A DNA stretch of 64,000 bases. Source: an uncultured virus (IMG/VR IMGVR_UViG_3300000928_001655) (lineage: Duplodnaviria; Heunggongvirae; Uroviricota; Caudoviricetes). A program made the position numbers and the translations under genes. Numbering within the stretch: the first letter of the stretch is position 1; each line of letters opens with the position of its first letter. Shown here piece by piece: positions 7,909-41,330 of the stretch. The stretch lies in the IMG/VR virus record IMGVR_UViG_3300000928_001655; one strand, 5' to 3'. The notes beneath the pieces were generated by a model that was given only the letters and a program-made list of their open reading frames with translations, was not told the DNA's origin and did no database searches.

Positions 7909-8437
7909 TTTTACTCAATTCTTCGAATGAACGAAATGCGAAATCAAAACAAATTCTTCCTTCATCTGCCATAGAATCATCAAGTAGTGTACGCATACCT
8001 TGAATGAGATCGTAACGATCATCAAAGTCGTAGTACTTACCACTGCCTGGAACTTTCTTCTTAATCATCTGACCACCATGTAGATCACCAAAGTGTCTTA
8101 CATATACGTGCGCAAGAAGCTTGTGATTGTCATGTTTAATAGTATCGATGTAGTTCACGTATTCGACAGTTGTATCCAGTGCATTTTCAATTGCACTCAG
8201 GTTTTCTAGTTCCATCAATTCATGCATGTCTTCAAAGATTGCGTTCGCACGAAAGATGGAGTGAAACTTTGGATCAAGATCTACCACACCTTCTAGCGCA
8301 CCGTAACAAATCATCTGATTGAACAGATACAGTTGATAATCTTTCGGTTCAATATTTCCCGACATAAGTGCTGTTGCAAATGCAGATGTTTCTGCACGTT
8401 CATGATGTTCCCAAGTGAGTTTTTTCAAATTACTCAT
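7901..8437 (-). CDS. hemO: heme oxygenase (HemO-like)
   Basis: LKKLTWEHHERAE, AHVYVRHFGDLHGGQMI. Confidence 0.9.
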   Translation of the reverse strand: MSNLKKLTWEHHERAETSAFATALMSGNIEPKDYQLYLFNQMICYGALEGVVDLDPKFHSIFRANAIFEDMHELMELENLSAIENALDTTVEYVNYIDTIKHDNHKLLAHVYVRHFGDLHGGQMIKKKVPGSGKYYDFDDRYDLIQGMRTLLDDSMADEGRICFDFAFRSFEELSKND

Positions 8438-9144
8438 TTACTATCCTCTCCAAAAGTGTACCTTGTTGTGCCGTCTTTTTTCTTTTCTACTTGCAGTTCG
8501 ATCTGACCAAACAAAAAATATCTAACTCCACGTTCTTCAGGTATCTCTTTCTCTATTATAATTTGGTTTCTCGCAGGCAAATGCGATTTAAATTCTTCTA
8601 ATGAATGTACACAGTTAATGTGACCTTCGATGTCTGTCATATTGTTTGACTGAACTGCGAAATATATATCTCTGCGTTTCTTCGTCCAATGACTTTGAAA
8701 CTTTATCAACTCGTGCATCTTCATCTCTATATGTTCGGAAGACGTATTGATTATCAGTAGGTCTACCTCTTCACCAAAGACTGGATGCTTTTCCTTTGTC
8801 AAGTCTGCCGATCTAAACTGCACGTTATCGTATTCATTTATTATAGATGCAATGTGATTCGCTTCTTTATCGATATCAAAACAAAACATCTCCTTTACAA
8901 GTGGTGCAAGTACTGGAACTAATATCGATCCGTACCAAGAACCAATGACTATTACTTTCATTTCTTTGTGTATTATACCACTTGTTAAGACACTTGTCAA
9001 GAGTTCTTTTTTCGAAATGAATTGATTTTTACTAATCGAATCGAAAATGTCCACAGTTTTCTCTGGAAACCTTCTACTCACCTCAAAAATATTTTGTGCA
9101 TATCCTATATCGAATTTATTATCAAACAGATCTATTTTTTGCAT
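8434..9144 (-). CDS. class I SAM-dependent methyltransferase-like protein
   Basis: VIVIGSWYG, CFDIDKEA, IINTSSEH. Confidence 0.6.
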   Translation of the reverse strand: MQKIDLFDNKFDIGYAQNIFEVSRRFPEKTVDIFDSISKNQFISKKELLTSVLTSGIIHKEMKVIVIGSWYGSILVPVLAPLVKEMFCFDIDKEANHIASIINEYDNVQFRSADLTKEKHPVFGEEVDLLIINTSSEHIEMKMHELIKFQSHWTKKRRDIYFAVQSNNMTDIEGHINCVHSLEEFKSHLPARNQIIIEKEIPEERGVRYFLFGQIELQVEKKKDGTTRYTFGEDSK

Positions 9145-10715
9145 ACCCAATCCTCAATCACCAAATAATGTAGTCCAGTTCTCTTGAATGTATCTACAGC
9201 ATTCTGTGGTGTCTCGACAATAGGTTCCTGACAATTGAAACTCGTATTCAACAACATAGGAACGCCAGTCTCTTCCTTAAACGCACTAATCAGCTTCCAG
9301 TACTTCTCGTTAAAAGACTTGTCTACCGTTTGTATACGTGCAGTACCGTCGACGTGAACGATGCCTGGCACTACAGATTTCTTCTCTTCTTTGACAGGCA
9401 TGATGCGTGACATGTAAGGAGAGGGTTGATTCGTATCAAAGTATTCCTGATAGTCTTCGATCAATACAGATGGAGCGAATGGACGGAAGTCCTCTCGCTT
9501 CTTGATATCTCTATTGATGATGTTCTTAATCTCAGGGTTACGAGGATCTGCGAGGATGGATCGATTACCCAGTGCACGATTACCACTCTCTGATCTACCT
9601 TGATACCAACCTACAATCGCTCCGTTTGCAATTTCCTTCGCAATAAATGGATATATGTCATCCATATTCATTCGTTCATAATTCATATCACCAAAAATCT
9701 CTTCTTTTATTTCATGTTCAACGCCAGCATATACGGGCGGAATATGTGTATTGTTATTTAGGACATAGTCTGCCATCATATACATGCCCAAAGACTGTCC
9801 TTCATCACCAAGTGCAGGTGGAATGTACACGTTCTTGTATATCTTTGAGATCATTTCATTCATGTAACCGTTGTACGCCACACCACCACTCAGTGCCACA
9901 CTGTCAGATGTTTTATGTTCTTTTATCAAGTCCATTATACGGTCATAAGTTAACTGTTGCATCGTTGCAGCGAGATCTCTGCCAGGGATCTGTTTCTTGT
10001 TACAGAAAGAGAGAATTTCAGACTCGTGCATGGGAAGAAATTTATTAGAACCCCCATCCCTAGAAATTTCATCTAATACTGGATATAGTTGTTGATCCAC
10101 CTTACCGAATGCCGCTAAACCCATTACTTTACCAACTTCGTGATCTAACCAGATACGTCTATCCATTAATTTACCAACTATCGAAGTGGTTGCAATCCAT
10201 GTTCTACCAAGATTGAAAGTATTGCTTAGGTTCGTAACGTTCTGATCTTTGTCGGCAATGAAACTTGTAAACCTGTTACCCCCACCATCAATCGCAAATA
10301 CATCACATTCGTCAAATCCACTTTGGATGTATGAATACGCCGCATGAGCCTGATGATGATCCGCATAGAATAGGTTATCTTTATAATAGTGTTCGAAAAG
10401 AGTCTTTGGATTGTAGTCTAATAACGCCTCTTTGTGAGGAATGAGATCTGACCAGAATCTAAAAAAAGCATTATTTCTAGGTATAGACATCGCCATGACA
10501 TCATATTCATTCCACTGTGGAGTGATTACATTTTCATAGTGGAGCATCATCCCATAATCATTTGGATGACAGGATTTGAGATCTCTTGGTGTTGGATCTG
10601 CTCTTGTTCCAATTCTGTTACCTTTGACACGTGAATATCTTTCGGCAACCCAATGAGTTTTACCATCATACCATGTTTGATCATGTGATGTTAATGCAGA
10701 TCCAATTAATTTCAT
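9132..10715 (-). CDS. carbamoyltransferase, NodU/CmcH/TobZ family, full length
   Basis: HHQAHA, IDGGG, GKVMGLA, LSGGVAYN, GRSESGNRALGNRSILADP, REDFRPFAP, HVDGTARIQ, LLNTSFN. Confidence 0.93.
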   Translation of the reverse strand: MKLIGSALTSHDQTWYDGKTHWVAERYSRVKGNRIGTRADPTPRDLKSCHPNDYGMMLHYENVITPQWNEYDVMAMSIPRNNAFFRFWSDLIPHKEALLDYNPKTLFEHYYKDNLFYADHHQAHAAYSYIQSGFDECDVFAIDGGGNRFTSFIADKDQNVTNLSNTFNLGRTWIATTSIVGKLMDRRIWLDHEVGKVMGLAAFGKVDQQLYPVLDEISRDGGSNKFLPMHESEILSFCNKKQIPGRDLAATMQQLTYDRIMDLIKEHKTSDSVALSGGVAYNGYMNEMISKIYKNVYIPPALGDEGQSLGMYMMADYVLNNNTHIPPVYAGVEHEIKEEIFGDMNYERMNMDDIYPFIAKEIANGAIVGWYQGRSESGNRALGNRSILADPRNPEIKNIINRDIKKREDFRPFAPSVLIEDYQEYFDTNQPSPYMSRIMPVKEEKKSVVPGIVHVDGTARIQTVDKSFNEKYWKLISAFKEETGVPMLLNTSFNCQEPIVETPQNAVDTFKRTGLHYLVIEDWVCKK

Positions 10716-11773
10716 TTGAATATATCTTCTGTTACCTCATGAACTTTTCCTGCAAATGGTTCTGGAATATCTTTCCTACCATTCAGAACATAGTTACAAT
10801 GCATGTAAAGACCCATAGACTGACCTTCGTCACCAGGCGCATTTGGTACAAAAACATTTTCCCAATGTTTGGTATATTTTTCGTTGAGATATCCATTGTA
10901 AGATACACCCCCTGCAACACACAGATTGTTTGATGTCTTATGTGGTAGGATTGTGTCTAGTACAATTTCATTTGTAAACTTCTGAAGAGTGAATGCCATG
11001 TCTTCTTTCCACATCGCATCATTAGTGTAAGGATCGAAGAACTTTTCTTCTGGCCAATACTTACCGTCTTTCACTTTGAACTCTTCGAACATCAGATAGA
11101 AAATATCTTCCCATCTTGGTGAATACTTACCGAACCCTGCAAGTCCCATTAACTTACCTTCGTTAAGAACACCAAATCCACCAAGTCGTGTCATGACATT
11201 CCACAACCAACCAACTGGAAGATCGTTACTTAGATTGATTATCTCTTGTGTATCTGATGGAATAAAAATAGCTCTGAATGTATTACCTTGTCCATCAATG
11301 ATAAAGATATCTGATTCTTCATAACCAGAGGATAGGAACGTGTGTGCGGCATGACACTGATGATGATCTGCGTAATAGACATTGTCTTTCGTCAGATGAT
11401 CCCAAAGATGTTCTGGTACATACTCGTCTGTTTCTTTGGCGAAGTCATTACCAAGTTTATGGAAGTACGCATCTCTACCATAGAGTTTCACTCCATTGAC
11501 TGTTATATTAGTCGCAAAGATTTCGTCACTGTCAACGTGACTATCCCAAAGGTTATTATACATGTTTTGAAAAGGAATTTGTTCATTGATAACTTTGTTA
11601 TCTAGATCCTTATACCATCTGCGTTGTTGTTCGACACTCGCACCGTATTTTAGTTTCCAGTAACAATGTTTACGACGAGAAGAATCATCATACCTTTCAT
11701 ATTGTATGTGATATTCTCCATCGTATGTGTTGTGATCATGTAAGTTTAGAGGTTGGGCAAAGATCTTTTTCAT
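10712..11773 (-). CDS. carbamoyltransferase, N-terminal (Kae1-like) domain only
   Basis: HHQCHA, IDGQG, EGKLMGLAGFG, AGGVSYNG, PGDEGQSMG; lacks the C-terminal GNRSIL/RPFAP domain. Confidence 0.85.
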   Translation of the reverse strand: MKKIFAQPLNLHDHNTYDGEYHIQYERYDDSSRRKHCYWKLKYGASVEQQRRWYKDLDNKVINEQIPFQNMYNNLWDSHVDSDEIFATNITVNGVKLYGRDAYFHKLGNDFAKETDEYVPEHLWDHLTKDNVYYADHHQCHAAHTFLSSGYEESDIFIIDGQGNTFRAIFIPSDTQEIINLSNDLPVGWLWNVMTRLGGFGVLNEGKLMGLAGFGKYSPRWEDIFYLMFEEFKVKDGKYWPEEKFFDPYTNDAMWKEDMAFTLQKFTNEIVLDTILPHKTSNNLCVAGGVSYNGYLNEKYTKHWENVFVPNAPGDEGQSMGLYMHCNYVLNGRKDIPEPFAGKVHEVTEDIFK

Positions 11774-12582
11774 TATCCAACCATCTTATCAAGTATCTTT
11801 TCCATCATTAAAGCTTCGACTCCACTGTCTCGTCTGGACAATTTCTCTGTACAGTTCTGACAATACTTCTCGAACTCGAATAATTCAAAGTTCATCATCT
11901 TATCAATATTTTCTTGTGTCACGTCAAAGTGCCGTGAACCATTGATCACCTTCTTACTACAGTGCCTAATCTTTTTCAATTCGAAATCAATTACTGGAAC
12001 ACGAGGGAACAAAGAACACATTCGTCTTGTCATCTCTGGTTCCTGATCGAACTTATCATAGGTGGGTGATCGTGAGTTGTATTCTTTGAACTGTGTGTTC
12101 TTGTGGTATAGATGCATAAGACCATGCTTCTTTCTATACTCTTCAAAGTTCGGTGTCATAATAATCAGATTATAATTGTTGTTATCATTCACTGTTAAGA
12201 AGTCATAGTTACCTAACTTTTCAATACGGTCTTCATAGAAGTCCAACACTAAGTGTTCCACATAATGGACTGCAGGATCATCTAAGATGTGAGGATAGAA
12301 TTTCCGAATCAAACTGTTAGACAGAACAACTGGCGTGAGATTAGGATATTTCTTAATCTCATCGATGACTTCATCTAAGTTGTTAGTAAGTGCAGGTTCA
12401 CCACCAAGTAGGTTGATCCTCGCTTTGTATGGACTTAACCATTTGAGTAACGGTGATATGAAATCCATGTCCACATCTAAGTTACGCATCTCAGTTGTCC
12501 ACGCAGTACAATAGTGGCAAGATTTGTTACAAGACTTTGTAAGATAAAAGTCTATACCAAATCCAAAGGCTTCTGATGACAT
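11773..12582 (-). CDS. radical SAM protein
   Basis: CNKSCHYC, LLGGEP; further C-terminal Cys (CQNC). Confidence 0.9.
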   Translation of the reverse strand: MSSEAFGFGIDFYLTKSCNKSCHYCTAWTTEMRNLDVDMDFISPLLKWLSPYKARINLLGGEPALTNNLDEVIDEIKKYPNLTPVVLSNSLIRKFYPHILDDPAVHYVEHLVLDFYEDRIEKLGNYDFLTVNDNNNYNLIIMTPNFEEYRKKHGLMHLYHKNTQFKEYNSRSPTYDKFDQEPEMTRRMCSLFPRVPVIDFELKKIRHCSKKVINGSRHFDVTQENIDKMMNFELFEFEKYCQNCTEKLSRRDSGVEALMMEKILDKMVG

Positions 12583-13701: not shown

Positions 13702-13730
13702 ATTATACCATTAAAGATTCGATTTGTCAA
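13702..13730 (-). promoter_or_regulatory. sigma70-type promoter driving the degT-to-gp32 run
   Basis: TTGACA-17 nt-TATAAT with TG extension. Confidence 0.75.
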
Positions 13731-22973: not shown

Positions 22974-22982
22974 ATCGTTTCC

Positions 22983-24205: not shown

Positions 24206-24213
24206 TATTTATG
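24206..24213 (-). promoter_or_regulatory. T4-type late promoter (CATAAATA) heading the leftward operon
   Basis: One mismatch to TATAAATA, about 45 nt upstream of ATG 24160. Confidence 0.55.
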
Positions 24214-24490: not shown

Positions 24491-24494
24491 TTTA

Positions 24495-25890: not shown

Positions 25891-25898
25891 CATAAATA
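25891..25898 (+). promoter_or_regulatory. T4-type late promoter (CATAAATA) heading the rightward operon
   Basis: 25 nt upstream of ATG 25923, which has an AAGGAG RBS. Confidence 0.55.
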
Positions 25899-26935: not shown

Positions 26936-26936
26936 C

Positions 26937-27867: not shown

Positions 27868-27896
27868 TTGACAAGTTTGTAAGACGGTGGTATAAT
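27868..27896 (+). promoter_or_regulatory. sigma70-type promoter
   Basis: TTGACA-17 nt-TATAAT with TG extension. Confidence 0.8.
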
Positions 27897-29324: not shown

Positions 29325-29327
29325 TTG

Positions 29328-30816: not shown

Positions 30817-30817
30817 T

Positions 30818-33467: not shown

Positions 33468-34104
33468 CTGGAAATCAGGTCAAGAACAAAGTAACTTTCA
33501 TTTTGATTGGCATCGTAAAGAACTTGCAGGACATGACTATAGATGGTTGGGGAGAATAGATCACGACTGGTCTGAAGAACTTGAGAAGATAAAGTTGGAA
33601 GCCGAACCTAAGAGTTGGGGAACCAGAGGAAAAAAGTATCATCCTGATCATGCACCTAAAGAAGCAGAAGAGAATGATCTAATCAACGCAGGGATGGACA
33701 AAGATCACATTATATTTCGTAAACACTTTGTTTTCGAAGGTATCTGGAAATCTGTTATAGATAGTATAGGACTGATCAATACCAAACAAGCATTTCATAT
33801 TCAGTATCCAGGCGAGATGTTAAACTTACATGTCGACAAACAACATGAGATGAATAAAGACACTTCTAAGATTGCAAGAGTTTTCATATTCTTAGAAGAT
33901 TGGAAGCCTGGACACTTTCTTCAAATGGGAACAAGTTTTGTTCAGTGGAGAAAGGGAGATGTAATCCACTTCGACTGGAAAGATATACCACACTGTAGTG
34001 CAAACGCAGGGTGGGAACCAAGATGTCTTATACAATTGACAGGCACTATGACTGATAGAACATTAGAGATCATGTCAGGTCAACACAGAACAATAGGAAT
34101 CTAG
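33457..34104 (+). CDS. 2OG-Fe(II) oxygenase/cupin-fold protein
   Basis: LHVD...FLEDWKPG...WRKGD...PHCSAN...R. Confidence 0.7.
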   Translation: MLSNWKSGQEQSNFHFDWHRKELAGHDYRWLGRIDHDWSEELEKIKLEAEPKSWGTRGKKYHPDHAPKEAEENDLINAGMDKDHIIFRKHFVFEGIWKSVIDSIGLINTKQAFHIQYPGEMLNLHVDKQHEMNKDTSKIARVFIFLEDWKPGHFLQMGTSFVQWRKGDVIHFDWKDIPHCSANAGWEPRCLIQLTGTMTDRTLEIMSGQHRTIGI

Positions 34105-34105
34105 A

Positions 34106-34414
34106 ATGAAACTAACTATCGCTGCAGATGCAAAAAAGTATCTTACAGAAATGGCATCCACTAAGGATACCAAATATATTTCTCTGAACGTCGAAGGCGG
34201 TGGTTGTTCAGGGTTTCAATATAAGTGGGACTTTACAGATGATATATCTTCAGGTAATATTATTGACGACATCCTTGTTATAGATGTTATGTCCGAAATG
34301 TTTTTGTTTGGATGTGAAGTACAATACGTTCAAGAACTAGGTGGTAGTTATCTCAAAGTTGTCAATCCAAATGCGACTGCATCATGTGGTTGTGGAGAAA
34401 GTTTCGCAGTATGA
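34106..34414 (+). CDS. HesB/IscA/ErpA A-type Fe-S carrier
   Basis: GGGCSGFQY, NPNATASCGCGESF. Confidence 0.95.
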   Translation: MKLTIAADAKKYLTEMASTKDTKYISLNVEGGGCSGFQYKWDFTDDISSGNIIDDILVIDVMSEMFLFGCEVQYVQELGGSYLKVVNPNATASCGCGESFAV

Positions 34415-34559: not shown

Positions 34560-34871
34560 ATGACCATGTCTAACAATTTCAAAGAAATCCTCACATGGAA
34601 TTCAAAACACCTTGCAGAAGCAGAGGTGGTTAAATCTCGTGCACTGAAAAACGAAAAAGGTGGTTATTGGTGGCACGCTAAACTCGCATTCAAAGAAGCA
34701 GGTTTCTCTCTTCTCATGGCTATTGGTTGGTTCCTTCACGGATTACTACCATGGTTGTTTGATTTTAAACTGTTGGAAGCACAAGTAGATAGACTCAGAA
34801 TGATTTCTAGAATTCTACCAGATCTACCATTGTTTAAAAGAGTGAAGTTTACGAAACCTAAAAAAGAGTAA
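34560..34871 (+). CDS. small membrane protein (DUF6356-like)
   Basis: HL...YWWH..LA...LHGLLP pattern, shared with 36870..37091. Confidence 0.5.
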   Translation: MTMSNNFKEILTWNSKHLAEAEVVKSRALKNEKGGYWWHAKLAFKEAGFSLLMAIGWFLHGLLPWLFDFKLLEAQVDRLRMISRILPDLPLFKRVKFTKPKKE

Positions 34872-34873
34872 TA

Positions 34874-35548
34874 ATGAATAAAGTTCGTGATGGGAGAGTT
34901 ACATTCTCCACTGGTTCCACTGGAACACCCAAAAAAATATGGCACTCTGCAGATAAACTCAATTTGTCATCAGAAGTTTACAGAAGATCTCATAACCTTA
35001 CTATAACGTCTTCTATCTTAAACTTTTTACCTCTCACCCACATTGGTGGTCTCGCTTTGACTCTGGCTGGAGACTACGTTGGGTGTGAGGTAACACAAAC
35101 AAAATTCAACCCCTACAGTTTTTTAGATCAATTACGTGAACATAGTCATACTATGGTTACTGATACTACTATTACTGTATTGCGAAAAACAAAACGGTTT
35201 CAGGATTATAGTTTTGAAAACAAGTTTATTCACAACGGTACAGAACCTCACAATGTAGACAACGTTATTGCATTGGTAGAAAGAGGTGCAACTGTACTTT
35301 GTAATTGGGGAATGACCGAATGTGGTCCTCTGTGTATTAATACAACATTCGAACCTTATGATGTAGATCGTGTCAAGGAAATGTTTGCGCCAGGCGCATT
35401 ACTTGGGGACAACTTTGAAGTAGAATGGAAAATAAATGATGGAGAGTTGGTTATCAGGAGTGATATGTCGATCTATAAAGATTGGTACTATACTGGTGAT
35501 ATCGTAAAATACGAAAATGAATCCTTATACTATATCAGACGAACATAA
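34874..35548 (+). CDS. truncated adenylate-forming (AMP-binding) enzyme
   Basis: FSTGSTGTPKK, LPLTHIGG, WGMTECGP, YTGDI. Confidence 0.85.
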   Translation: MNKVRDGRVTFSTGSTGTPKKIWHSADKLNLSSEVYRRSHNLTITSSILNFLPLTHIGGLALTLAGDYVGCEVTQTKFNPYSFLDQLREHSHTMVTDTTITVLRKTKRFQDYSFENKFIHNGTEPHNVDNVIALVERGATVLCNWGMTECGPLCINTTFEPYDVDRVKEMFAPGALLGDNFEVEWKINDGELVIRSDMSIYKDWYYTGDIVKYENESLYYIRRT

Positions 35549-36329
35549 ATTAATAATCATATCTGCAAACTCAGGTGGACGTGGATGGAAGATGGCACGT
35601 CTCACAACGTGTTATGAATACGTGTACTGGTACAAGAGTAAAAGTAACGGAGAATATCCATGGACTTTACCAGATAACTTTGAGTGTGACGAACGCAGAT
35701 TAGCAAAGATGCACTTCGATAGAAAAATGCCTTGTGGAAACATCGCACCACTTTTCGGATATCGTGTTTCAAGATTTTGGGATGATGATGGGTGGAAAGC
35801 TAGGTGGAGAGAACTGTACGACAAACTACAGAAACCCACAATGGACGAGGGACAGTGTTTAGTTTACGTCTCTCATGAAGATCCAAAGACTTTAAGAGAA
35901 TGGTTTCCCAACGCTTGTATATTCTGTGTATATGACAAGGATAGTAGTGTGAGTGCATACTGGCATTTACAGACTTCTGCAGAGTACAGGATTGATCACC
36001 ACTTCAGTGGTATGAAACCAGATTATAGAAACAATTACCAAAAGACACTTGACTGGATCATAGAGATCCGAGGTGATGAGGCAAAGTTTAAAGACATTTG
36101 GATGTACGAAACTCATGACAAACTTGAGTGGAATGAAGAACTAATTGCAGAATACACTCAGCATGAACTGAAAACTATCGATGCAGAGAACACACTCAGA
36201 TACGAGAACCGTGAACATGCAGATCTAACAACAACGTGGGACGACTTTCACGTAGACCTTTTAAAACCATTCCTTGGTGACATAGATGCAAACCATACCA
36301 AAATACTCAGTCCACCACAGTATTACTGA
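35517..36329 (+). CDS. hypothetical protein
   Basis: 270 aa in operon; weak P-loop-like IIISANSGGRG. Confidence 0.65.
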   Translation: MNPYTISDEHKLIIISANSGGRGWKMARLTTCYEYVYWYKSKSNGEYPWTLPDNFECDERRLAKMHFDRKMPCGNIAPLFGYRVSRFWDDDGWKARWRELYDKLQKPTMDEGQCLVYVSHEDPKTLREWFPNACIFCVYDKDSSVSAYWHLQTSAEYRIDHHFSGMKPDYRNNYQKTLDWIIEIRGDEAKFKDIWMYETHDKLEWNEELIAEYTQHELKTIDAENTLRYENREHADLTTTWDDFHVDLLKPFLGDIDANHTKILSPPQYY

Positions 36330-36876
36330 TTACGATCTTGAACTGTTCATGAAAAAGTGTGCAGATCTGGGATACAAAAACAACTCATCAAAAAAAGAGA
36401 TGAGATGGGATTGGGTCACAGAAAATATGGGATCGTTCTGGGCTTTCATGAAAGATGATGAAATCATTTCATTGTCTGGTTGTCATCCTTTCCCAGAGAT
36501 GGAAGACACTTATAGAATAGGTTATAGATCAGTAGTCCTGCCTGGTACAGATCCTTTTAAAGGAATATCCAGATACGGTTACAATGCAATACCAAATAGA
36601 ATATTGTTTCAATACCAAATTAGGTTCTGTCAAAAGATGGGTGTCAATAACTTTATTCTCACAACAAATTCTGAGAGAGACGGTCACTTAGACATGTCAC
36701 ACAGAATGGAAGTGCAGATACACAAGTACACAAACTTGTCAGAGTATTTGGGAGATCGTTTGATTTTCAATCACATGCAATCATTGTGGAAGTACGATGT
36801 GAACGTATACATAGAAAGCCTGTCAAAACTGAAACCAGAACCTTATTACATAATAGATGAGTTACAAAAATGTTAG
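36286..36876 (+). CDS. GNAT-like hypothetical protein
   Basis: IISLSGCH...YRIGYR; FILTTN. Confidence 0.45.
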   Translation: MQTIPKYSVHHSITDYDLELFMKKCADLGYKNNSSKKEMRWDWVTENMGSFWAFMKDDEIISLSGCHPFPEMEDTYRIGYRSVVLPGTDPFKGISRYGYNAIPNRILFQYQIRFCQKMGVNNFILTTNSERDGHLDMSHRMEVQIHKYTNLSEYLGDRLIFNHMQSLWKYDVNVYIESLSKLKPEPYYIIDELQKC

Positions 36877-37091
36877 ACTTCGATTTTAAACACCTAAGAA
36901 AGATTAAGACCAATTACTTTCGACACTTATTCATCGCAATGAAATTTAACTTCATTGCCTTACTCGTGTTCATTACTGGGACAATACACGCATTCTTTCC
37001 GTTTGTATTCGCATTCACACCATACAACTTGGCAAAGAAGATTACTGACGGTACTGAGAAACACTTTAAAAAGGAATCGGATGATCCTTGA
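36870..37091 (+). CDS. small membrane protein (DUF6356-like)
   Basis: HL...YFRH..IA...IHAFFP. Confidence 0.55.
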   Translation: MLDFDFKHLRKIKTNYFRHLFIAMKFNFIALLVFITGTIHAFFPFVFAFTPYNLAKKITDGTEKHFKKESDDP

Positions 37092-38004
37092 ACACTAATT
37101 TTATGTTCTGCATTGTCATGTCATCTAGTTTTGGAATGTGGTCTAAGTTCTCTTTGAGTTGAGACACATTCGTTACTCCCAATATCATAGCTTCTAATAA
37201 AGGTTGACGTAATACCCATGCCATAGACATCTGTGTCAATGTCATGCCTGCGTCTTCTGCAATCTCTTTGTACCTTCTAATAGGTTCCCAAACATTCTTA
37301 TTGTCTCTAGGACCTAAACCACCATACGTTCTTCTACTGTACTCTGGTGCGTCAATATAAGTGTACTTACCAGTTAACAACCCACCTGCGAGTGGTGTCC
37401 ATGCGAGAAGTTTTACATCGTGATGATGACATGCTTCTGCAACATCTAATTCAAATATCCTGTGCAATAAACTATATTCGTTTTGAATACATTTAAGTGG
37501 AAGTCTTTGTGCCCACTGAGTAACACCCCATGCGGTTTCATTACTCATACAGATATTATCGATCTTACCTTCATCTACTAGATCATTTAAAACCTCACTA
37601 CATCTATCAAAGTATTCCATGTTAGTGTCTGTGGGTTTGTAATTCCACATCTGTCTGAAATGATAATGATCTCTACGAGGCCAATGGAAATGCAGGTAAT
37701 CTATACGTTCAACATTCAGACGTTGTAGACTTTCATCTACTAAAGTTCTCACATCTCTCACTTCTACAGGACTTTTGAGTTTGGTACTGACACGTAGTTT
37801 GTTGGGGTTCTTTGCAATGAAGTCACCTAATATGCGTTCACTGAGTCCATAAGTCTTTTCTGTATATGGGAATGTGGGATAGATCTGCGCCGTATCAAAG
37901 AAGTCAACTCCATATTCTAAAGCTTCTTCTATTATTGCGTGTGCTTGGTGTTCATTAGTCTTAGATCCCCACAACATCGTACCAATACAAATATTTTTAT
38001 TCAT
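37066..38004 (-). CDS. aldo/keto reductase (Tas-like)
   Basis: GTMLWG, DTAQIY, HWP, SNETAWG, QNEYSLL, PLAGGLLTGKY. Confidence 0.93.
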   Translation of the reverse strand: MNKNICIGTMLWGSKTNEHQAHAIIEEALEYGVDFFDTAQIYPTFPYTEKTYGLSERILGDFIAKNPNKLRVSTKLKSPVEVRDVRTLVDESLQRLNVERIDYLHFHWPRRDHYHFRQMWNYKPTDTNMEYFDRCSEVLNDLVDEGKIDNICMSNETAWGVTQWAQRLPLKCIQNEYSLLHRIFELDVAEACHHHDVKLLAWTPLAGGLLTGKYTYIDAPEYSRRTYGGLGPRDNKNVWEPIRRYKEIAEDAGMTLTQMSMAWVLRQPLLEAMILGVTNVSQLKENLDHIPKLDDMTMQNIKLVFKDHPIPF

Positions 38005-38570
38005 TTCTTAATTCTTTCTAATACACTCACTTGATAATAAAACTCTACGCCGCCATCAACACGACCCAAGAAAGTGGGAGACGTATCGACAAAACGAAAT
38101 TCATTGAGATCCAACCAACCGTGTATTTTTAAATATTCATCTGCAGGATGTGTGGGATGTGTGATTACAAGTCGACCATTTACATCTAAACTCTTGGTTA
38201 TATTCCCAAGAGGTGATGAACTTAAACATCCATGGTTGAAGAGTCCACTCACAACAATAACGTCATAGACCTCTGGTAGACGAGTTTCTATTATATTACA
38301 ATATTCAGATTTTCTATAGAAGTCTTTTGATATATTGATATAGTTTGGAATGATGTCATAACCATCTACACGTGCAAACCCTGCATACATTAAAAGTAAT
38401 CCGAGTTCACCTGTACCACAACCAATATCTGCGACTTTAGTTTCTTTATTGCAAATAGAAATTACAGTTTCTGCAGCCTTGACATATCCTACCCAATTCT
38501 GACCAACGATAACTTCGTTTGTGTAGTCAAGATCTTTGTAAATATCAATCTGTTTAGCTAAATTGTCCAT
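38001..38570 (-). CDS. class I SAM-dependent methyltransferase
   Basis: VADIGCGTG, DGYDI. Confidence 0.85.
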   Translation of the reverse strand: MDNLAKQIDIYKDLDYTNEVIVGQNWVGYVKAAETVISICNKETKVADIGCGTGELGLLLMYAGFARVDGYDIIPNYINISKDFYRKSEYCNIIETRLPEVYDVIVVSGLFNHGCLSSSPLGNITKSLDVNGRLVITHPTHPADEYLKIHGWLDLNEFRFVDTSPTFLGRVDGGVEFYYQVSVLERIKK

Positions 38571-38571
38571 G

Positions 38572-39423
38572 TCACTTGGTGTTCTGAATAACCCTATCCA
38601 ATATGATTGCAAGACCCACAATTGCAGTACCTGCGATAAGTCCACTACCTATATATTGGTTTTGAACTGCTTGTAACACTGGGACACCTAAACCCTGTAC
38701 ACCAATCATACTCGCAATGACTACCATTGATATGGACATCATCGTAGTTTGGTTCGCACCTGCAAGGATTGATTTCTTCGAAAGAGGAAGTTCTATTGTC
38801 CATAGTATCTGCCATGGTTTCATACCCATACTCATCGCCGCTTCGATCATACCGATACCAACTTGACGTAGTCCTAAGTTCGTAAGTCGAATGATAGGTG
38901 GGACTGCATAGATTGTCATTGCAATAACGCCTGGAATTTTACCCAGACCAAATAACATAACAACTGGTATCAGGTAAACAAATATAGGGATTGTCTGCAT
39001 CACGTCAAGAATAGGATTAATTGCATTCTGAACACGTATAGTTCTCGACATCCATATACCAATAGGAATGCCTATAGCGACACTCAACAGTCCAGATGCA
39101 ATCACAAGACTGAGAGTATACATCGTATCTTCCCACAGACCAAATACCCCAATAAACAACATGTACAGTATTGAACCTGCACAGAGTATTTTGTCTCTAG
39201 TAAAATAAAAAATGACCCCGACGAATAATAACATCGTCAAGGGCCAAGGTGCACTTACTAGTGCGAACTCCACCCAGTTCATAAAGAACTTAAGTGGATA
39301 GAATATTACCTCAATAGAGTCCCCATAACTGCGAGAGAATTCTCTGAAAGATGTATCAATGGACTTTTTAATCGCCCTGATAACACCTTTACTCAGTTCT
39401 GGGAACTCTAAGAAGTAGTTCAT
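38572..39423 (-). CDS. proW: glycine betaine/proline ABC transporter permease (ProW-like)
   Basis: LDVMQTIP.FVYLIP, EAAMSMG, ELPL..IL.G.NQT.M. Confidence 0.92.
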   Translation of the reverse strand: MNYFLEFPELSKGVIRAIKKSIDTSFREFSRSYGDSIEVIFYPLKFFMNWVEFALVSAPWPLTMLLFVGVIFYFTRDKILCAGSILYMLFIGVFGLWEDTMYTLSLVIASGLLSVAIGIPIGIWMSRTIRVQNAINPILDVMQTIPIFVYLIPVVMLFGLGKIPGVIAMTIYAVPPIIRLTNLGLRQVGIGMIEAAMSMGMKPWQILWTIELPLSKKSILAGANQTTMMSISMVVIASMIGVQGLGVPVLQAVQNQYIGSGLIAGTAIVGLAIILDRVIQNTK

Positions 39424-39426
39424 GGG

Positions 39427-40422
39427 TTAGTTCAGTTTCGCAGCAACGTCTTCTGAAACCCATGCTTTCCACATGTCGTAGTTTTCTACAAAGTATTCTG
39501 CTACTTCATCTGGAGCGGCTTGGTTGTCATCCATGTAACCCAATAGTGAATTCATCACTGGGCCTGGGATAACACGTGCGGCAAAATAACTTTGCGCTTC
39601 TGCACTACCTGTTGCGGCAAATTCATCTGTGAATACAGTACGCACGAATGAACCTGTCCAGCTTGATGGTTGTGGGTTCGGACAATCTGGTTTTGTAATA
39701 CAATTCCAGTTCTCTTGACCACCGAATTCTACACCCCAATCAAGGACACGTAGATCGTATTTGCCAACGAAGGCAGTTGGTGCGGAGTAATATCCGAACC
39801 ATGCTTCTCCACGATCATGGGCACGACTAATAGTGGCATCTTCTGCCGCATATGAGCCAGGTTCGATCATTTTCCAACCTTTTGCTTCCATGTCAAACGC
39901 ATTGAACAAGTTCGCATTTGAAATCTGACAACCTGAGCCTGGAGGACATGTTACAAATCCACCTTTACTCGCATCATCAGGATGTGGAAATAGATCTGGA
40001 CGTGCAAGAACTGCTTCCAGTGTAGTTAGTTCTGGATGTGCTTCCAGAATATTTGGGTGAACGTACCATCCCTCTGCAACACCACCGATTGGTGATTGTC
40101 CTGCAGATTCTGTCATACGACCATCCTCTAGTGCGGCATTGTACAAGTCAATACCCGCTGCGTTTGGCCACAACTCACCCATAACGTCTGGTTGGGATTG
40201 TTCAACCATAGACGTAAATGAAGGAACAGTACCGCCTGGGATCATAGTTACTGAACATCCCATACCCTCTTCGAGTACAAGTTTGTCAATTTCTCCCAAG
40301 ATGCTTGCGGAACCCCATCCGAGTCCTGCCATTGTGACATCGCCACAATCATCTGCACTTGCGGTGCTAACAAACCCCAAGGTGACTGCCGCTGCAGCAA
40401 AAGTTACCAAAGTTTTTTTCAT
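39427..40422 (-). CDS. proX: glycine betaine-type ABC substrate-binding protein (ProX-like)
   Basis: Signal peptide, CG.VTMA..GW.S, CPPGSGC, WFGYYSAP. Confidence 0.88.
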   Translation of the reverse strand: MKKTLVTFAAAAVTLGFVSTASADDCGDVTMAGLGWGSASILGEIDKLVLEEGMGCSVTMIPGGTVPSFTSMVEQSQPDVMGELWPNAAGIDLYNAALEDGRMTESAGQSPIGGVAEGWYVHPNILEAHPELTTLEAVLARPDLFPHPDDASKGGFVTCPPGSGCQISNANLFNAFDMEAKGWKMIEPGSYAAEDATISRAHDRGEAWFGYYSAPTAFVGKYDLRVLDWGVEFGGQENWNCITKPDCPNPQPSSWTGSFVRTVFTDEFAATGSAEAQSYFAARVIPGPVMNSLLGYMDDNQAAPDEVAEYFVENYDMWKAWVSEDVAAKLN

Positions 40423-40456
40423 GTATGTTTTTCCTTTCATGATTATTCAACATAAC

Positions 40457-41080
40457 TTAATTATTATAACATTGTTCTACTAGATTGTCAACATCTTTTT
40501 TTGACAATGTTGGTTTCCAAGGATCTTTTTGATCCCATCTCTCAGAATAGTTTACTACGAAACGTATTCCATTTTTATTTGCGAGGTTATATGCATCCCC
40601 GACTTGATGTTGGTTGTGCTTCAGTACTGGAAAACTCCACGTAACATTTGCACCCATTAATGCGCCAAGACGCATTGCATTAAAGGACTGATCAAAAATC
40701 AATCCTTTTCTATAAGTCCCTGCAGTGTCTTGGAGACCGTCTACATCAAAGTGAAATCTATCATCTTTGTTTGTACAAACGGCGAATATGTATTCCCACC
40801 ACTTTTCATTATATCCAGAACCAACAGTATATAGTGACATTGGTATAGAACTCTTCTCAATCATTTCCACGATCTCAGGGAACTTGGAATGATAGATTGG
40901 ATCTCCTAGATTACCACACAATACTATTCTATCTGGTCTGTTATTTATAACAGTCTGCACATGTTCCATTTTGATATCTGTCTCAGCATATAATCCTTTA
41001 AGTAAGGTTCTGGGACATTTAGAACAAGCTTGAAAACACCTAGACGTGAGTTCAATCTTTATATTTTTCCGTGCATTCAT
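40457..41080 (-). CDS. radical SAM protein (core only)
   Basis: CFQACSKC, CGNLGDP, DVDG, KHNQHQ. Confidence 0.88.
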   Translation of the reverse strand: MNARKNIKIELTSRCFQACSKCPRTLLKGLYAETDIKMEHVQTVINNRPDRIVLCGNLGDPIYHSKFPEIVEMIEKSSIPMSLYTVGSGYNEKWWEYIFAVCTNKDDRFHFDVDGLQDTAGTYRKGLIFDQSFNAMRLGALMGANVTWSFPVLKHNQHQVGDAYNLANKNGIRFVVNYSERWDQKDPWKPTLSKKDVDNLVEQCYNN

Positions 41081-41330
41081 AAAAACAAACCTTTAAACCG
41101 TTGAAAGGATTTTCTTTAACGTCTTCTACGAACTTTTTGAGATGTATATTTACTATATCATCCATAGAAGTTTTGTCTAAGTTCCAATCATCCGATTCAT
41201 CAAATATTTTCTTCTCTTCACTGGCTTCACTAATCCAATAGCAAGGACGGACTGTACCCCTTGAAGATACAAAGAGTTGACAACCGCCCTCACATTTTGG
41301 TGTGATGTCCATGTTCCATTGTTTCATCAT
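41052..41330 (-). CDS. stand-alone SPASM/twitch-like Fe-S domain protein
   Basis: ITPKC...GTVRPCYW...CFYEC. Confidence 0.7.
   Translation of the reverse strand: MMKQWNMDITPKCEGGCQLFVSSRGTVRPCYWISEASEEKKIFDESDDWNLDKTSMDDIVNIHLKKFVEDVKENPFNGLKVCFYECTEKYKD

What the first reader, a model, noticed from the sequence alone, without database searches (positions are those of the whole stretch)
8434..41330. ~33 kb phage-encoded biosynthetic/modification island linked to virion-like late genes
Seen: more than 20 small-molecule tailoring enzymes in three gene runs. They include 5 radical SAM cores, a QueC-like ATPase fusion, 2 carbamoyltransferases, DegT, 2 GT-A glycosyltransferases, 4 class I methyltransferases, 2 adenylation enzymes, 2 2OG-Fe(II)-type oxygenases, nitroreductase, SDR, AKR, and SGNH-, GNAT- and sulfotransferase-like proteins. 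An Fe-S carrier and two uptake systems sit among them. Both divergent arms start at T4 late-promoter-like CATAAATA sites (24206-24213 minus, 25891-25898 plus) followed by non-enzymatic proteins. Inference: a dedicated pathway that builds an unusual chemical group, most plausibly to decorate virion proteins or remodel the host surface. I know of no characterised phage pathway with this composition.
Basis: partly seen in the sequence, partly recalled or inferred. Interest (0 to 1): 0.9.

Follow-up and report, generated by a model that had tools for sequence, protein, structure and literature searches.

The report
Relocated glycan-tailoring island of a pelagimyophage
A marine T4-like phage, probably of SAR11-type bacteria, carries a 33-kb patchwork of sugar-modifying and radical-SAM enzymes packed directly behind two tail-region proteins, so it most likely decorates the virion or the host surface with an unusual sugar; the kind of island is already described, but its chemistry is untested.

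Summary
The enzyme-rich island is real and not an assembly artefact. Of about 27 claimed enzymes, 16 have solid family or fold support, 7 are weak leads, and 4 stay unverified (GNAT-like, sulfotransferase-like, one 2OG-like, w35517).

It is not one dedicated pathway. It is a set of nested modules with their own promoters.
- **Module 1** is a late-promoter block: p61, two paralogs of a large unnamed family (FIB), then three predicted glycosyltransferases. In relatives FIB follows gp8-VrlC, with a GT within 10 kb downstream in 26 of 30 lineages.
- **Module 2** moves on its own: two N-twitch radical SAMs (one fused to a QueC-like PP-loop domain), a cysteine-hydrolase-fold protein and a nitroreductase.
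- **Module 3** is DegT, a small rSAM, carbamoyltransferase and a methyltransferase behind a perfect sigma-70 promoter. Among isolates only Pelagibacter phage Mosig shares it.
- **Module 4** (27.9-41.3 kb) holds lineage-specific extras, including the uptake genes.

This is a relocated, enlarged variant of the published pelagimyophage host recognition cluster.

My best reading is cytoplasmic synthesis of a decorated glycan attached to the FIB proteins (0.45). The main rival is host-envelope remodelling (0.27).

The parts
8434..9150 (-). Class-I-methyltransferase-like protein (M090 family)
   Evidence: Weak Pfam methyltransferase hits, E 0.04-0.08. It is 38% identical to Mosig_00090, annotated 'putative methyltransferase'. 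The family lies within 10 kb downstream of FIB in 31 of 42 loci.
9132..10715 (-). NodU/CmcH-type carbamoyltransferase, full length
   Evidence: Carbam_trans_C 231 bits and Carbam_trans_N 70 bits. PHROG 1601, E 4e-108.
10712..11773 (-). Carbamoyltransferase paralog with the N domain only
   Evidence: Carbam_trans_N 67 bits and no C domain.
11773..12582 (-). Small radical SAM enzyme (269 aa)
   Evidence: Radical_SAM E 4e-6. It is 58% identical to Mosig_00088, the only hit among 50,697 phage records.
12582..13679 (-). DegT/DnrJ/EryC1-type PLP sugar aminotransferase
   Evidence: PF01041 256 bits. It resembles ArnB, PseC, LegC and DesI but scores below each equivalog cut-off.
13702..13730 (-). Perfect sigma-70 consensus promoter (TTGACA-17-TGnTATAAT), 23 nt before the DegT start
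   Evidence: The window has 6 perfect sites against 0.07 expected in 30 shuffles.
13711..16047 (-). Fusion of a QueC-like PP-loop ATPase with an N-twitch radical SAM (TwiB)
   Evidence: NF033640 261 bits over residues 318-739. The N part has invariant SGGxDS and C225..C240xxC243xxC246. The N domain is a separate ORF in L014, L017, L022 and L025.
16057..16626 (-). Protein with an isochorismatase-like / cysteine-hydrolase fold (189 aa)
   Evidence: AF2 pLDDT 89. Foldseek gives 26 PDB hits at E<=1e-3; all those shown, down to rank 38, are of that superfamily. Cys117 is invariant. Found in 18 of 22 TwiA loci.
16613..18043 (-). N-twitch radical SAM (TwiA)
   Evidence: NF033640 269 bits. Invariant C180xxxC184xxC187 and four invariant N-terminal Cys.
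18036..18977 (-). Radical SAM enzyme (313 aa)
   Evidence: Radical_SAM 31.5 bits. PHROG 21308, E 4e-15.
18961..20181 (-). GT-B-like glycosyltransferase domain (residues 1-287) plus a Cys-rich SPASM-like tail
   Evidence: Atlas structure search gives TM 0.61-0.71 to GT4/GT1 clusters, though the Atlas model has pLDDT of only 0.57. Weak SPASM hit, E 0.13. The two parts are separate ORFs in L014 and L016-L018.
20185..21470 (-). Two GT-A-like paralogs, GTa (20185-20763) and GTb (20763-21470)
   Evidence: Atlas score 0.95-0.96 to viral clusters with GT8 or Nucleotid_trans on 11-16% of members. The two are 25% identical, E 2e-8, with aligned DxD. 2 of 10 GTa homologs give weak GT8 hits.
21479..21985 (-). 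Acidic 168-aa protein of unknown function (M095-like)
   Evidence: No family hit. It follows FIB in 12-15 loci.
21996..23954 (-). Two paralogs of the FIB / Mosig_00097 family (FIB1 21996-22973, FIB2 22983-23954)
   Evidence: FIB1 is 43% identical to Mosig_00097. VrlC lies upstream in 32 of 36 loci. AF2 pLDDT 85 with no clear fold match. Threefold internal repeat.
23975..24160 (-). 61-aa protein at the head of the left arm
   Evidence: Conserved at 78-100% identity in L006, L008, L037 and L040. No similarity to Mosig_00099.
24206..24213 (-). CATAAATA late-promoter-like site, 46 nt before p61
24226..24527 (-). Two-piece (permuted) alphaproteobacterial-type tmRNA
   Evidence: RF01849 110 bits and RF04321 114 bits. 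ARAGORN also calls it. It is 70% identical over 39% of the query to the Melnitz SsrA.
25891..25898 (+). CATAAATA late-promoter-like site, 25 nt before 25923
25923..27859 (+). Acidic 98-aa protein, nitroreductase (26219-26935), SDR-like fragment (26937-27368), Asp/Arg-hydroxylase-like oxygenase (27299-27859)
   Evidence: A nitroreductase-family gene sits inside the minimal rSAM module of other contigs.
27868..27896 (+). Perfect sigma-70 consensus promoter, 32 nt before 27928
27928..34414 (+). Methyltransferase-like, SGNH-like, AMP-binding enzyme (29325-30816, split by an N mask), SSF symporter (30818-32277, split by an N mask), P-loop protein, methyltransferase-like, cupin-like protein, ErpA/IscA carrier (34106-34414)
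   Evidence: In L037 the AMP-binding gene is one 503-aa ORF.
34560..37091 (+). Two small membrane proteins (DUF6356-like), a short AMP-binding-like protein, and two unknown proteins
   Evidence: TATAAATA at 34519-34526 lies 34 nt before 34560.
37066..40440 (-). OpuAC binding protein, ProW-like permease, methyltransferase, aldo-keto reductase
   Evidence: A perfect sigma-70 promoter at 40463-40491 lies 23 nt before the OpuAC start.
40457..41330 (-). Radical SAM enzyme (207 aa) with a separate 92-aa SPASM-like ORF

Best explanation
The island is a relocated, enlarged version of the accessory cassette of the pelagimyophage host recognition cluster. It is built from nested modules rather than one pathway.

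**Proposed mechanism (inferred)**
1. Early in infection, sigma-70-type promoters switch on module 3. DegT aminates a keto-sugar nucleotide. The small radical SAM, the carbamoyltransferases and the methyltransferase then tailor it.
2. The uptake genes and the Fe-S carrier are switched on as well, and supply the many iron-sulfur enzymes.
3. Late in infection, a T4-type late promoter drives one tightly packed block: p61, two FIB proteins, p168, two GT-A-like transferases and one GT-B-like transferase. Transcription then runs on into the radical-SAM module.
4. All of these enzymes are soluble and cytoplasmic. The transferases therefore most likely put the tailored sugar directly onto the co-transcribed FIB proteins before virion assembly.
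5. FIB proteins are pseudo-threefold proteins of the tail or baseplate region, so the change would alter how the virion meets the host surface.

**The radical-SAM module**
The N-twitch radical-SAM module moves independently between phages: two paralogs, the PP-loop domain, the nitroreductase-type flavoenzyme and the cysteine-hydrolase-fold protein. It probably adds a further redox or amide-forming tailoring step. Its substrate is unknown.

**Shown versus inferred**
- Shown: gene families, folds, synteny, promoter motifs, contiguity.
- Inferred: the substrate, the order of steps and the acceptor.
For: **Synteny with virion-module genes**
- Of 36 related viral loci with at least 8 kb upstream of FIB, 32 have VrlC and 30 have baseplate gp8 upstream.
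- Of 42 loci with at least 8 kb downstream, 38 have a GTa/GTb-family gene within 10 kb. 31 have the methyltransferase, 21 a radical SAM, 12 a carbamoyltransferase and 12 the SGNH-like gene.
- After merging loci at 95% identity, the figures for 30 lineages are 26, 21, 14, 11 and 11.

**Co-translocation**
- In the window's clade (L006, L037-L040) the p61-FIB2-FIB1-p168-GTb unit sits beside the tmRNA and hydrolase with no VrlC nearby. In L006 and L037-L039 GTa, p406, rS313 and TwiA follow in the window's order. One search found no VrlC in the 117.8-kb contig that holds L040.

**Transcription signals**
- CATAAATA lies 46 nt before p61.
- From 24160 down to 13711 no intergenic gap exceeds 20 nt, and no minus-strand terminator is predicted.
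- In relatives ATAAATA precedes gp8 in 23 of 29 cases and M098 in 22 of 35. It precedes carbamoyltransferase in 0 of 21, methyltransferase in 0 of 38, TwiA in 0 of 20 and SGNH in 0 of 22.
- gp33 and a gp55-like sigma factor are in the window.

**Glycan chemistry**
- DegT 256 bits and carbamoyltransferase.
- GT-B-like fold, TM 0.61-0.71, and GT-A leads.
- No membrane segment in any of the 17 left-arm proteins except one weak call inside the methyltransferase. No flippase, polymerase or priming-transferase family was found.

**A cultured relative**
- Pelagibacter phage Mosig has the same arrangement directly after VrlC.

**Contiguity and presence in RNA libraries**
- A 100% identical 29.6-kb contig exists.
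- 14 DNA runs hold at least 0.99 of the sampled words of 14501-24500.
- One DNA run tiles all of 7000-24700.
- Contigs from three RNA libraries lie on 26, 18 and 20 of 30 bins.
Against: **No direct evidence for the acceptor**
- Nothing shows that FIB is in the virion or that it is glycosylated. Its fold matches nothing clearly: best Z 6.8 to beta-prism domains, and nothing at E<=0.001 in PDB or BFVD by Foldseek.

**Weak glycosyltransferase calls**
- The GT-A and GT-B assignments are leads, not family memberships. GTb gave 0 of 10 Pfam hits, and the Atlas model has low confidence.

**Missing pathway steps**
- No sugar nucleotidyltransferase or 4,6-dehydratase was found in the island, so the sugar precursor would have to come from the host.

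**FIB without enzymes**
- In nine fetched loci (L075-L077, L081, L088, L095-L098) FIB lies just before gp8, with no enzymes directly behind it. The enzymes are therefore not obligatory partners.

**The rSAM module without FIB or GTs**
- The minimal radical-SAM module occurs alone next to uvsY in L010. It need not serve glycosylation.

**Competing signals**
- Perfect sigma-70 promoters inside the island fit early auxiliary metabolic genes as well as the proposed model.
- The published view favours modification of the host O-chain (PMC7029224).

**Limits of the RNA and locus data**
- RNA-library contigs may come from contaminating DNA, and they show neither strand nor level.
- Loci fetched with FIB or TwiA as the query are biased toward those genes.
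Confidence: 0.45

Rival explanations
1. The enzymes remodel the host envelope (lipopolysaccharide O-chain or capsule) during infection. This would block superinfection, or stop progeny from sticking to debris. The linkage to FIB would then be mere adjacency within a hypervariable region.
For: - The authors who described the host recognition cluster proposed this. They found 63 of 162 LPS-related proteins inside it and GT8 as the commonest family (PMC7029224, passages).
- DegT scores best against ArnB, PseC, LegC and WecE-type surface-sugar aminotransferases.
- Sigma-70 promoters before DegT, 27928 and OpuAC fit early host takeover.
- The Asp/Arg-hydroxylase family also includes lipid A hydroxylase LpxO (recalled).
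Against: - No membrane-embedded or periplasmic step is encoded: no flippase, polymerase, ligase or priming transferase.
- The three GTs share a tight late-type block with FIB rather than sitting with the early module.
- FIB and the enzymes moved together in the window's clade.
Confidence: 0.27
2. The island makes a diffusible small molecule, such as an aminocyclitol, aminoglycoside-like or nucleoside-like compound. The molecule would act on competitors or on host metabolism.
For: - The set of twitch-type radical SAM, DegT-family aminotransferase and carbamoyltransferase resembles 2-deoxystreptamine aminoglycoside logic (BtrN, BtrS, TobZ; recalled).
- A cyanomyovirus paper calls a DegT-family plus radical-SAM pair 'antibiotic synthesis genes' (PMC12801897, passages).
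- Two adenylating enzymes and two uptake systems are present.
Against: - No scaffold-forming enzyme (cyclase, synthase) and no exporter was found.
- It does not explain three glycosyltransferases co-transcribed with tail-region proteins, nor the 26 of 30 FIB-GT linkage.
Confidence: 0.1
3. There is no shared product. The region is a hypervariable dump of unrelated auxiliary metabolic genes, kept together only by tolerance of insertions at this site.
For: - The modules have different distributions.
- None of the window's ORFs from 27.9 to 41.3 kb was found in the 21 kb fetched from L040.
- Several independent promoters are present.
- The uptake genes, AKR and Fe-S carrier have plausible stand-alone roles.
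Against: - The left-arm order is kept at 56-88% protein identity in L037 and at 51-83% in L008.
- The core set recurs in 22 loci fetched with TwiA.
- The same families recur beside FIB in 26 of 30 lineages and in the isolate Mosig.
Confidence: 0.1
4. The enzymes hypermodify phage DNA, by base glycosylation or by deazapurine- or amide-type groups, to evade host nucleases.
For: - T4 glucosyltransferases are GT-B enzymes (recalled).
- The island has a QueC-like PP-loop domain.
- PLP, radical SAM and flavoenzyme sets occur in thymidine hypermodification pathways (recalled).
- A Mom-family protein lies 1.6 kb beyond the island at 42920-43549 (113 bits).
Against: - No TGT/DpdA was found in 0 of 5 related records, including the complete Mosig genome, while all 14 control genomes scored.
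- No hydroxymethylase, DNA kinase or glycosylase-fold transferase was seen in the island.
- The usual position behind VrlC and the baseplate genes argues for a virion role.
Confidence: 0.06

Closest known systems
Host recognition cluster (HRC) of pelagimyophages (Zaragoza-Solas et al. 2020, PMC7029224; passages read)
   Same: Both are large non-syntenic islands of T4-like marine phages that hold tail-region genes, glycosyltransferases, LPS-type sugar enzymes and radical-SAM cassettes. The window's FIB genes are the ones that follow VrlC in 32 of 36 relatives.
   Different: The published cluster lies between VrlC and neck gene gp14. Here the cassette sits in the replication module, between gp33/heme oxygenase and endolysin/uvsY, and no VrlC, gp8 or gp14 is in the 64 kb. 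It also carries a right arm and an OpuAC run that were not found in the fetched part of L040. The paper's supplements were not read and may list some of these families.
Pelagibacter phage Mosig EXVC030M, genes Mosig_00082 to 00099 (MT647606; annotation read)
   Same: Homologs are present for FIB (43%), GTa (51%), GTb (22%), methyltransferase (38%), carbamoyltransferase (45%), small rSAM (58%), DegT (48%), the p406 N part (48%), rS313 (32%), the SGNH-like protein and nitroreductase. Mosig is a cultured phage on HTCC1062, so the idea can be tested.
   Different: Mosig has no N-twitch radical SAM, no PP-loop fusion and no cysteine-hydrolase-fold gene. Its cassette lies directly after VrlC. The genome announcement does not mention these genes: 0 hits for six terms.
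Virion glycosylation in mycobacteriophages (Freeman et al. 2023; seen only as a reference entry, content recalled)
   Same: Phage-encoded glycosyltransferases near structural genes decorate virion proteins in the cytoplasm.
   Different: Those phages use two or so glycosyltransferases on capsid and tail-tube proteins. They have no radical-SAM, DegT or carbamoyl tailoring set, and the proteins are unrelated.
LPS gene clusters of T4-like cyanomyophages such as P-SSM2 (recalled), and the 'antibiotic synthesis genes' of S-SCSM2R (PMC12801897, passages)
   Same: Marine T4-like phages carry sugar aminotransferase, radical-SAM and transferase genes in plastic regions.
   Different: No cyanophage record matched FIB, GTb, the small rSAM or the N-twitch rSAMs.
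QueC (7-cyano-7-deazaguanine synthase) and other PP-loop amidating ATPases
   Same: The SGGxDS PP-loop and a C-terminal Cys..CxxCxxC pattern are invariant in 8 of 8 homologs.
   Different: The Pfam QueC score is 16 bits against a cut-off of 22. No QueD, QueE or TGT partners were found. The domain is fused to an N-twitch radical SAM.

Membership tests
Pelagimyophage host recognition cluster | Lies between VrlC and neck gene gp14 in the structural module | tested here: not met
   No VrlC, gp8 or gp14 family was found in any ORF of the 64-kb window. The flanks are gp33/heme oxygenase and endolysin/uvsY. No VrlC was found in the 117.8-kb contig of clade relative L040 either.
Pelagimyophage host recognition cluster | Holds the tail-region genes that follow VrlC | tested here: met
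   FIB1 and FIB2 belong to the Mosig_00097 family. VrlC lies upstream in 32 of 36 loci.
Pelagimyophage host recognition cluster | Holds glycosyltransferases, LPS-type enzymes and radical-SAM cassettes, and varies between relatives | tested here: met
   for gene content. for variation between the window, L037, L040 and Mosig.
NF033640 N_Twi_rSAM | Score over the curated cut-off of 170 bits | tested here: met
   269 bits for 16613-18043 and 261 bits for 13711-16047.
NF033640 N_Twi_rSAM | CxxxCxxC radical-SAM motif and an N-terminal Cys cluster | tested here: met
   C180, C184 and C187, plus C49, C67, C117 and C120, are invariant in 14 of 14 sequences.
QueC (PF06508) | Family score over the gathering cut-off | tested here: not met
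   16 bits against 22. Only the PP-loop and Cys motifs are shared.
Isochorismatase-like cysteine hydrolases | Fold | tested here: met
   26 PDB matches at E<=1e-3; all those shown, down to rank 38, are of this superfamily. The best is PncA 6a8l, E 3e-5, TM 0.54.
Isochorismatase-like cysteine hydrolases | Asp-Lys-Cys catalytic triad | tested here: inconclusive
   Cys117 is invariant in a GGTNTxGC motif. The expected Asp is His in 4 of 10 sequences, and no invariant Lys was seen. No Pfam Isochorismatase hit at E<=1. The triad positions are recalled and were not superposed.
DegT/DnrJ/EryC1 aminotransferases | Family score over the cut-off | tested here: met
   256 bits against 19.8. No equivalog cut-off was reached, so the substrate is not named.
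NodU/CmcH carbamoyltransferases | Both N and C domains | tested here: met
   Met for 9132-10715 (70 and 231 bits). 10712-11773 has the N domain only.
GT-A glycosyltransferases (GT8-like) | Family profile match and DxD motif | tested here: inconclusive
   The window proteins give no Pfam hit. Among homologs, 2 of 10 GTa and 0 of 10 GTb give weak GT8 hits. Atlas score 0.95-0.96 to clusters with GT8 on 11-12% of members. Aligned DLD/DID motifs.
T4-type late promoter | TATAAATA about 10 nt before the transcript start, with gp55 and gp33 present | tested here: inconclusive
   Both arms have CATAAATA, not TATAAATA, 25 and 46 nt before the ORFs. gp33 (48 bits) and a gp55-like sigma factor (25 bits) are present. 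The motif precedes gp8 in 23 of 29 relatives. Transcript starts were not measured.

The most novel reading that the evidence does not exclude
Phages of the SAR11 type run a cytoplasmic, radical-SAM-assisted pathway. It builds a previously unknown amino-, carbamoyl- and methyl-decorated sugar and attaches it to a pseudo-threefold tail-tip protein of a new fold. The virion's own receptor-binding surface would then be glycan-coded and could be swapped by exchanging modules. The separately mobile module (two N-twitch radical SAMs, PP-loop ATPase, flavoenzyme, cysteine hydrolase) would carry out chemistry with no characterised counterpart.
Probability: 0.25. Interest if true: 0.8.

Novelty: new variant of a known kind. 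Interest (0 to 1): 0.58.

Why it matters
Pelagimyophages and their relatives infect some of the most abundant bacteria in the sea. Their large variable island has been described only at the level of gene lists. This window adds four points.
- The enzymes are tied to one particular tail-region protein family with at least 993 unnamed members. A GT lies within 10 kb downstream in 26 of 30 lineages.
- That unit can move as a block.
- Part of the radical-SAM content is a self-contained module of unknown chemistry that is essentially confined to viral contigs.
- A cultured phage, Mosig, carries the simpler version.

Together these turn the open question of what the variable island does into a direct experiment on virions and infected cells. 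If the virion is the target, phage glycosylation would matter for host range in the ocean's dominant phage-host pairs.

Tried and rejected
**Searches for close relatives**
- A megablast of 8434-33000 against 50,697 phage records found nothing. The window's own assembly is not held.

**Cellular homologs of the N-twitch rSAMs**
- A pattern-limited scan of species-representative genomes gave 7 loci. Only one was a close relative, a 1.7-kb contig at 55% identity. The rest were at most 27% identical generic rSAMs.
- This scan is limited by its patterns and does not prove absence.
- The family search found 203 proteins at E<=1e-10; the 120 listed all come from metagenomes and carry no informative name.

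**Fold of FIB1**
- Foldseek against PDB and BFVD gave no match at E<=0.001.
- The exhaustive aligner gave Z 6.8, 6.6 and 5.4 to beta-prism domains. By the tool's own note these are too weak to name a fold.

**Profiles against PDB sequences**
- The N-twitch rSAM profile gave no hit at E<=1.
- The PP-loop domain profile gave only E 0.24-0.28.
- The hydrolase profile gave E 0.2-0.5, with two isochorismatase-family chains among six hits.

**Unverified annotations**
- 32267-32875 (sulfotransferase-like) and 36286-36876 (GNAT-like) gave nothing useful in Pfam at E<=1 or in PDB sequences.

**p61 versus Mosig_00099**
- No similarity was found, so the two are not equated.

**7-deazaguanine DNA modification**
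- No TGT was found in 5 related records.

**RiPP reading**
- I considered the small ORFs at the arm heads as precursor peptides. I dropped this because p61 and 25923 are absent from most loci that carry the rSAM module, and the 189-aa protein between the rSAMs is an enzyme fold.

**Literature**
- 'twitch domain' + 'radical SAM' + 'phage' gave 2 papers, neither on this cassette.
- 'radical SAM' + 'pelagiphage' gave 2 papers.
- 'pelagimyophage' gave 29 papers.

**RNA evidence**
- Parts of 7000-24700 without cover in the RNA-library contigs say nothing.

**Not run**
- No complex prediction was run.

Full report
**What the window is**

Pfam finds a T4-type replication set on the flanks.
- On the left flank (333-7228, minus strand): gp41-like helicase, UvsX, gp32, gp59 and the gp33 coactivator.
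- On the right flank (53.7-63.9 kb): UvsY, UvsW, a gp55-like sigma factor, gp47, gp46 and DNA polymerase.
- gp32 is only 49-61% identical to that of Melnitz, HTVC008M and cyanomyophages.
- No near-identical record exists among 50,697 phage records.

Three observations point to the pelagimyophage/Melnitz group and an alphaproteobacterial, SAR11-like host.
- A two-piece alphaproteobacterial-type tmRNA lies at 24226-24527 on the minus strand (RF01849 110 bits, RF04321 114 bits; ARAGORN). It is partly alignable to the Melnitz SsrA. That feature is published for this phage group (PMC9004378, passages).
- A PcyA/PebS-type bilin reductase and a heme oxygenase lie at 7228-8437.
- The only isolate with homologs of several island genes is Pelagibacter phage Mosig.

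The host assignment is an inference.

**Is the sequence sound?**

- A 29.6-kb IMG/VR contig is 100% identical over the parts of 8434-28000 that are not N-masked.
- L037 (56-91% protein identity) keeps the gene order from 11.8 to 32 kb across the junction of the two arms.
- L109 (37-92%) keeps the order from 32.3 to 45 kb.
- 14 DNA runs hold at least 0.99 of the sampled words of 14501-24500.
- The contigs of one DNA run tile all of 7000-24700.

A chimeric scaffold is therefore excluded.

Six stretches of the window are masked as N. Two of them split the AMP-binding and SSF genes. In L037 the AMP-binding gene is one 503-aa ORF.

**Checking the enzyme list**

Solid support covers 16 items:
- five radical SAMs
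- the PP-loop fusion
- two carbamoyltransferases
- DegT
- nitroreductase
- an Asp/Arg-hydroxylase-type oxygenase
- two AMP-binding proteins
- AKR
- one methyltransferase
- the 189-aa protein, which was new to the list and folds as an isochorismatase-like cysteine hydrolase

Leads cover 7 items:
- two GT-A-like paralogs
- a GT-B-like domain in 18961-20181
- three weak methyltransferases
- an SDR-like fragment
- an SGNH-like protein (5 of 10 homologs with sub-threshold GDSL hits)

Unverified:
- the GNAT-like protein and the sulfotransferase-like protein
- the second 2OG-like protein
- w35517

The Fe-S carrier, the SSF symporter and the OpuAC/ProW pair are confirmed. The ABC system has no ATPase gene in the window.

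**Nested modules, not one pathway**

I fetched 22 viral loci other than the window's own with the N-twitch rSAM as query. These showed the following.
- The smallest recurring set is two N-twitch rSAM paralogs, a nitroreductase-family protein and the 189-aa hydrolase-fold protein.
- In L010 this set stands alone next to uvsY.
- In the window the nitroreductase sits on the other arm (26219-26935). This ties the start of the right arm to the left arm.
- The PP-loop domain is fused to TwiB here, but it is a separate ORF in L014, L017, L022 and L025.
- Related contigs carry up to five family members above the cut-off.

The set of DegT, small rSAM, carbamoyltransferase and methyltransferase recurs in 11-15 of those 22 loci. 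It also occurs in Mosig.

Genes from 27.9 to 41.3 kb are shared with L037 and L109 and partly with L111 and L112. None was found in the 21 kb fetched from L040, where the endolysin lies about 2 kb from the nitroreductases.

**The link to virion genes**

The two 'non-enzymatic' 325-aa proteins (FIB1, FIB2) are paralogs of Mosig_00097, with FIB1 43% identical. In Mosig the order is as follows.
1. gp8
2. VrlC
3. Mosig_00099, 00098 and 00097
4. A short reversed stretch
5. The enzymes

I then examined 73 viral loci fetched with FIB1.
- VrlC lies upstream in 32 of the 36 loci with at least 8 kb upstream, and gp8 in 30.
- Among the 42 loci with at least 8 kb downstream, the genes found within 10 kb are a GTa/GTb-family gene in 38, the methyltransferase in 31, a radical SAM in 21, an N-twitch rSAM in 19, and carbamoyltransferase and SGNH in 12 each.
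- After merging at 95% identity (30 lineages) the figures are 26, 21, 14, 12, 11 and 11.
- In nine loci FIB lies just before gp8, with no enzymes directly behind it.
- The loci were fetched with FIB as the query, so the linkage is conditional on FIB.

This is the host recognition cluster described by Zaragoza-Solas et al.. In the window's clade the p61-FIB2-FIB1-p168-GTb unit has left that place (with GTa, p406, rS313 and TwiA behind it in L006 and L037-L039) and sits in the replication module.

**What FIB is**

- The AF2 model is confident (pLDDT 84.9, pTM 0.83).
- It has no clear match. Foldseek finds nothing at E<=0.001. The best exhaustive Z values, 6.8, 6.6 and 5.4, are to beta-prism domains.
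- Profile comparison of its thirds shows a threefold internal repeat:
  - 1-104 against 220-325: probability 93.6%, E 3e-8
  - 105-219 against 220-325: E 2e-4
  - 1-104 against 105-219: E 2.5e-3
- Each repeat has a P-[LV]-Y-x-D motif and a DTR motif.
- The family has at least 993 members at E<=1e-5. None of the 120 listed has a Pfam domain or an informative name.
- That it is a virion protein rests on synteny and promoter motifs only.

**Transcription signals**

Late-type motif:
- ATAAATA is not enriched overall (22 sites against 15.5 +/- 4).
- About 9 of the 22 sites lie 22-46 nt before same-strand ORF starts, including both arm heads.
- In relatives it precedes gp8 in 23 of 29 cases, M098 in 22 of 35, M097 in 15 of 69 and GTb in 7 of 36.
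- It never precedes carbamoyltransferase (0 of 21), methyltransferase (0 of 38), TwiA (0 of 20) or SGNH (0 of 22).

Packing of the left arm:
- From 24160 to 13711 the largest gap between ORFs is 20 nt.
- No minus-strand terminator is predicted there.

Early-type promoters:
- The window has 6 perfect sigma-70 consensus promoters against 0.07 expected. It has 23 sites with at least 11 of 12 matches against 2.6 expected.
- All are oriented with the local genes.
- Perfect sites lie 23 nt before DegT, 32 nt before 27928 and 23 nt before OpuAC. Another lies inside 8434-9150.

So the FIB-GT-rSAM block looks late. The DegT module, most of the right arm and the OpuAC run look early. This is inferred from motifs alone.

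Contigs from three RNA libraries lie on 26, 18 and 20 of 30 bins of 7000-24700. That is compatible with transcription but does not prove it.

**Reading**

- The enzymes are soluble, and no membrane step of envelope-glycan assembly is encoded.
- Three predicted transferases share a late block with FIB.
- The unit moved as a whole.

I therefore favour direct cytoplasmic decoration of FIB with a tailored amino- and carbamoyl-sugar (0.45). The rivals are:
- host-envelope remodelling (0.27), the published suggestion
- a small-molecule product (0.10)
- unrelated auxiliary genes (0.10)
- DNA modification (0.06); no TGT was found in 0 of 5 related records

**Novelty**

- New here are the relocation, the quantified FIB-GT linkage, the self-contained N-twitch module with its PP-loop and hydrolase-fold partners, the promoter mosaic and the threefold FIB architecture.
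- The papers' supplements were not read and may bear on gene lists.

Noticed in passing
window 24226-24527 (-), promoters at 24537-24544 and 24581-24608: A two-piece alphaproteobacterial-type tmRNA sits between the two arms. TATAAATA lies about 10 nt upstream, and an 11-of-12 sigma-70-like site lies further upstream. The TATAAATA is part of a palindrome that also faces the EF-hand ORF at 24572.
   Followed up: partly
window 21996-23954 (-); alignment A3: The FIB family is a single chain built of three roughly 105-aa repeats, each with P-[LV]-Y-x-D and DTR motifs. Its confident model has no clear fold match, and the family has at least 993 unnamed members. A pseudo-threefold monomer could cap a trimeric fibre, but that is speculation.
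   Followed up: partly
window 42920-43549 (-): A Mom-family protein (PF25680, 113 bits) lies just outside the island. It suggests an adenine DNA modification in this phage that is separate from the island.
   Followed up: no
window 7228-8437 (-): A heme oxygenase and a PcyA/PebS-type bilin reductase abut the island on the same strand. A perfect sigma-70 promoter at 8972-9000 lies inside the upstream methyltransferase-like gene, 535 nt before the heme oxygenase start.
   Followed up: no
window 24929-25279 (-): A sigma-70-like promoter (11 of 12 matches, 25251-25279) and a strong 13-bp-stem terminator (24929-24957) bracket a roughly 320-nt minus-strand unit. The unit is partly N-masked and could be a small RNA or a small ORF.
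   Followed up: no
window 38572-40440 (-): A phage-encoded OpuAC binding protein and a ProW-like permease have no ATPase gene in the window. They would have to borrow the host's ATPase.
   Followed up: no
window 40457-41330 (-) and 18036-20181 (-): Radical-SAM cores and their SPASM-like Cys-rich parts are encoded as separate or differently fused ORFs. One case is a 207-aa core plus a 92-aa ORF. In the other, the Cys-rich tail is fused to a GT-B-like domain here but stands free in L014 and L016-L018.
   Followed up: partly
window 42247-42324, 45122-45457 (-): Four tRNA genes are present: Arg-TCT, Gln-TTG, Glu-TTC and Trp-CCA. One N-masked stretch (45308-45364) lies among them.
   Followed up: no
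window 50587-52015: Two convergent FkbM-family methyltransferases and a 2OG-Fe(II) oxygenase (52800-53402) lie just before uvsY. In L009, L010 and L012 the minimal rSAM module occupies this same site.
   Followed up: partly
window 14501-24500: 14 marine or seawater DNA runs, dated 2011 to 2024 and drawn from 13 named studies plus one run that names no study, hold at least 0.99 of the sampled words. This points to a widespread and very conserved phage population. Some of these runs may be the source of the window itself.
   Followed up: partly
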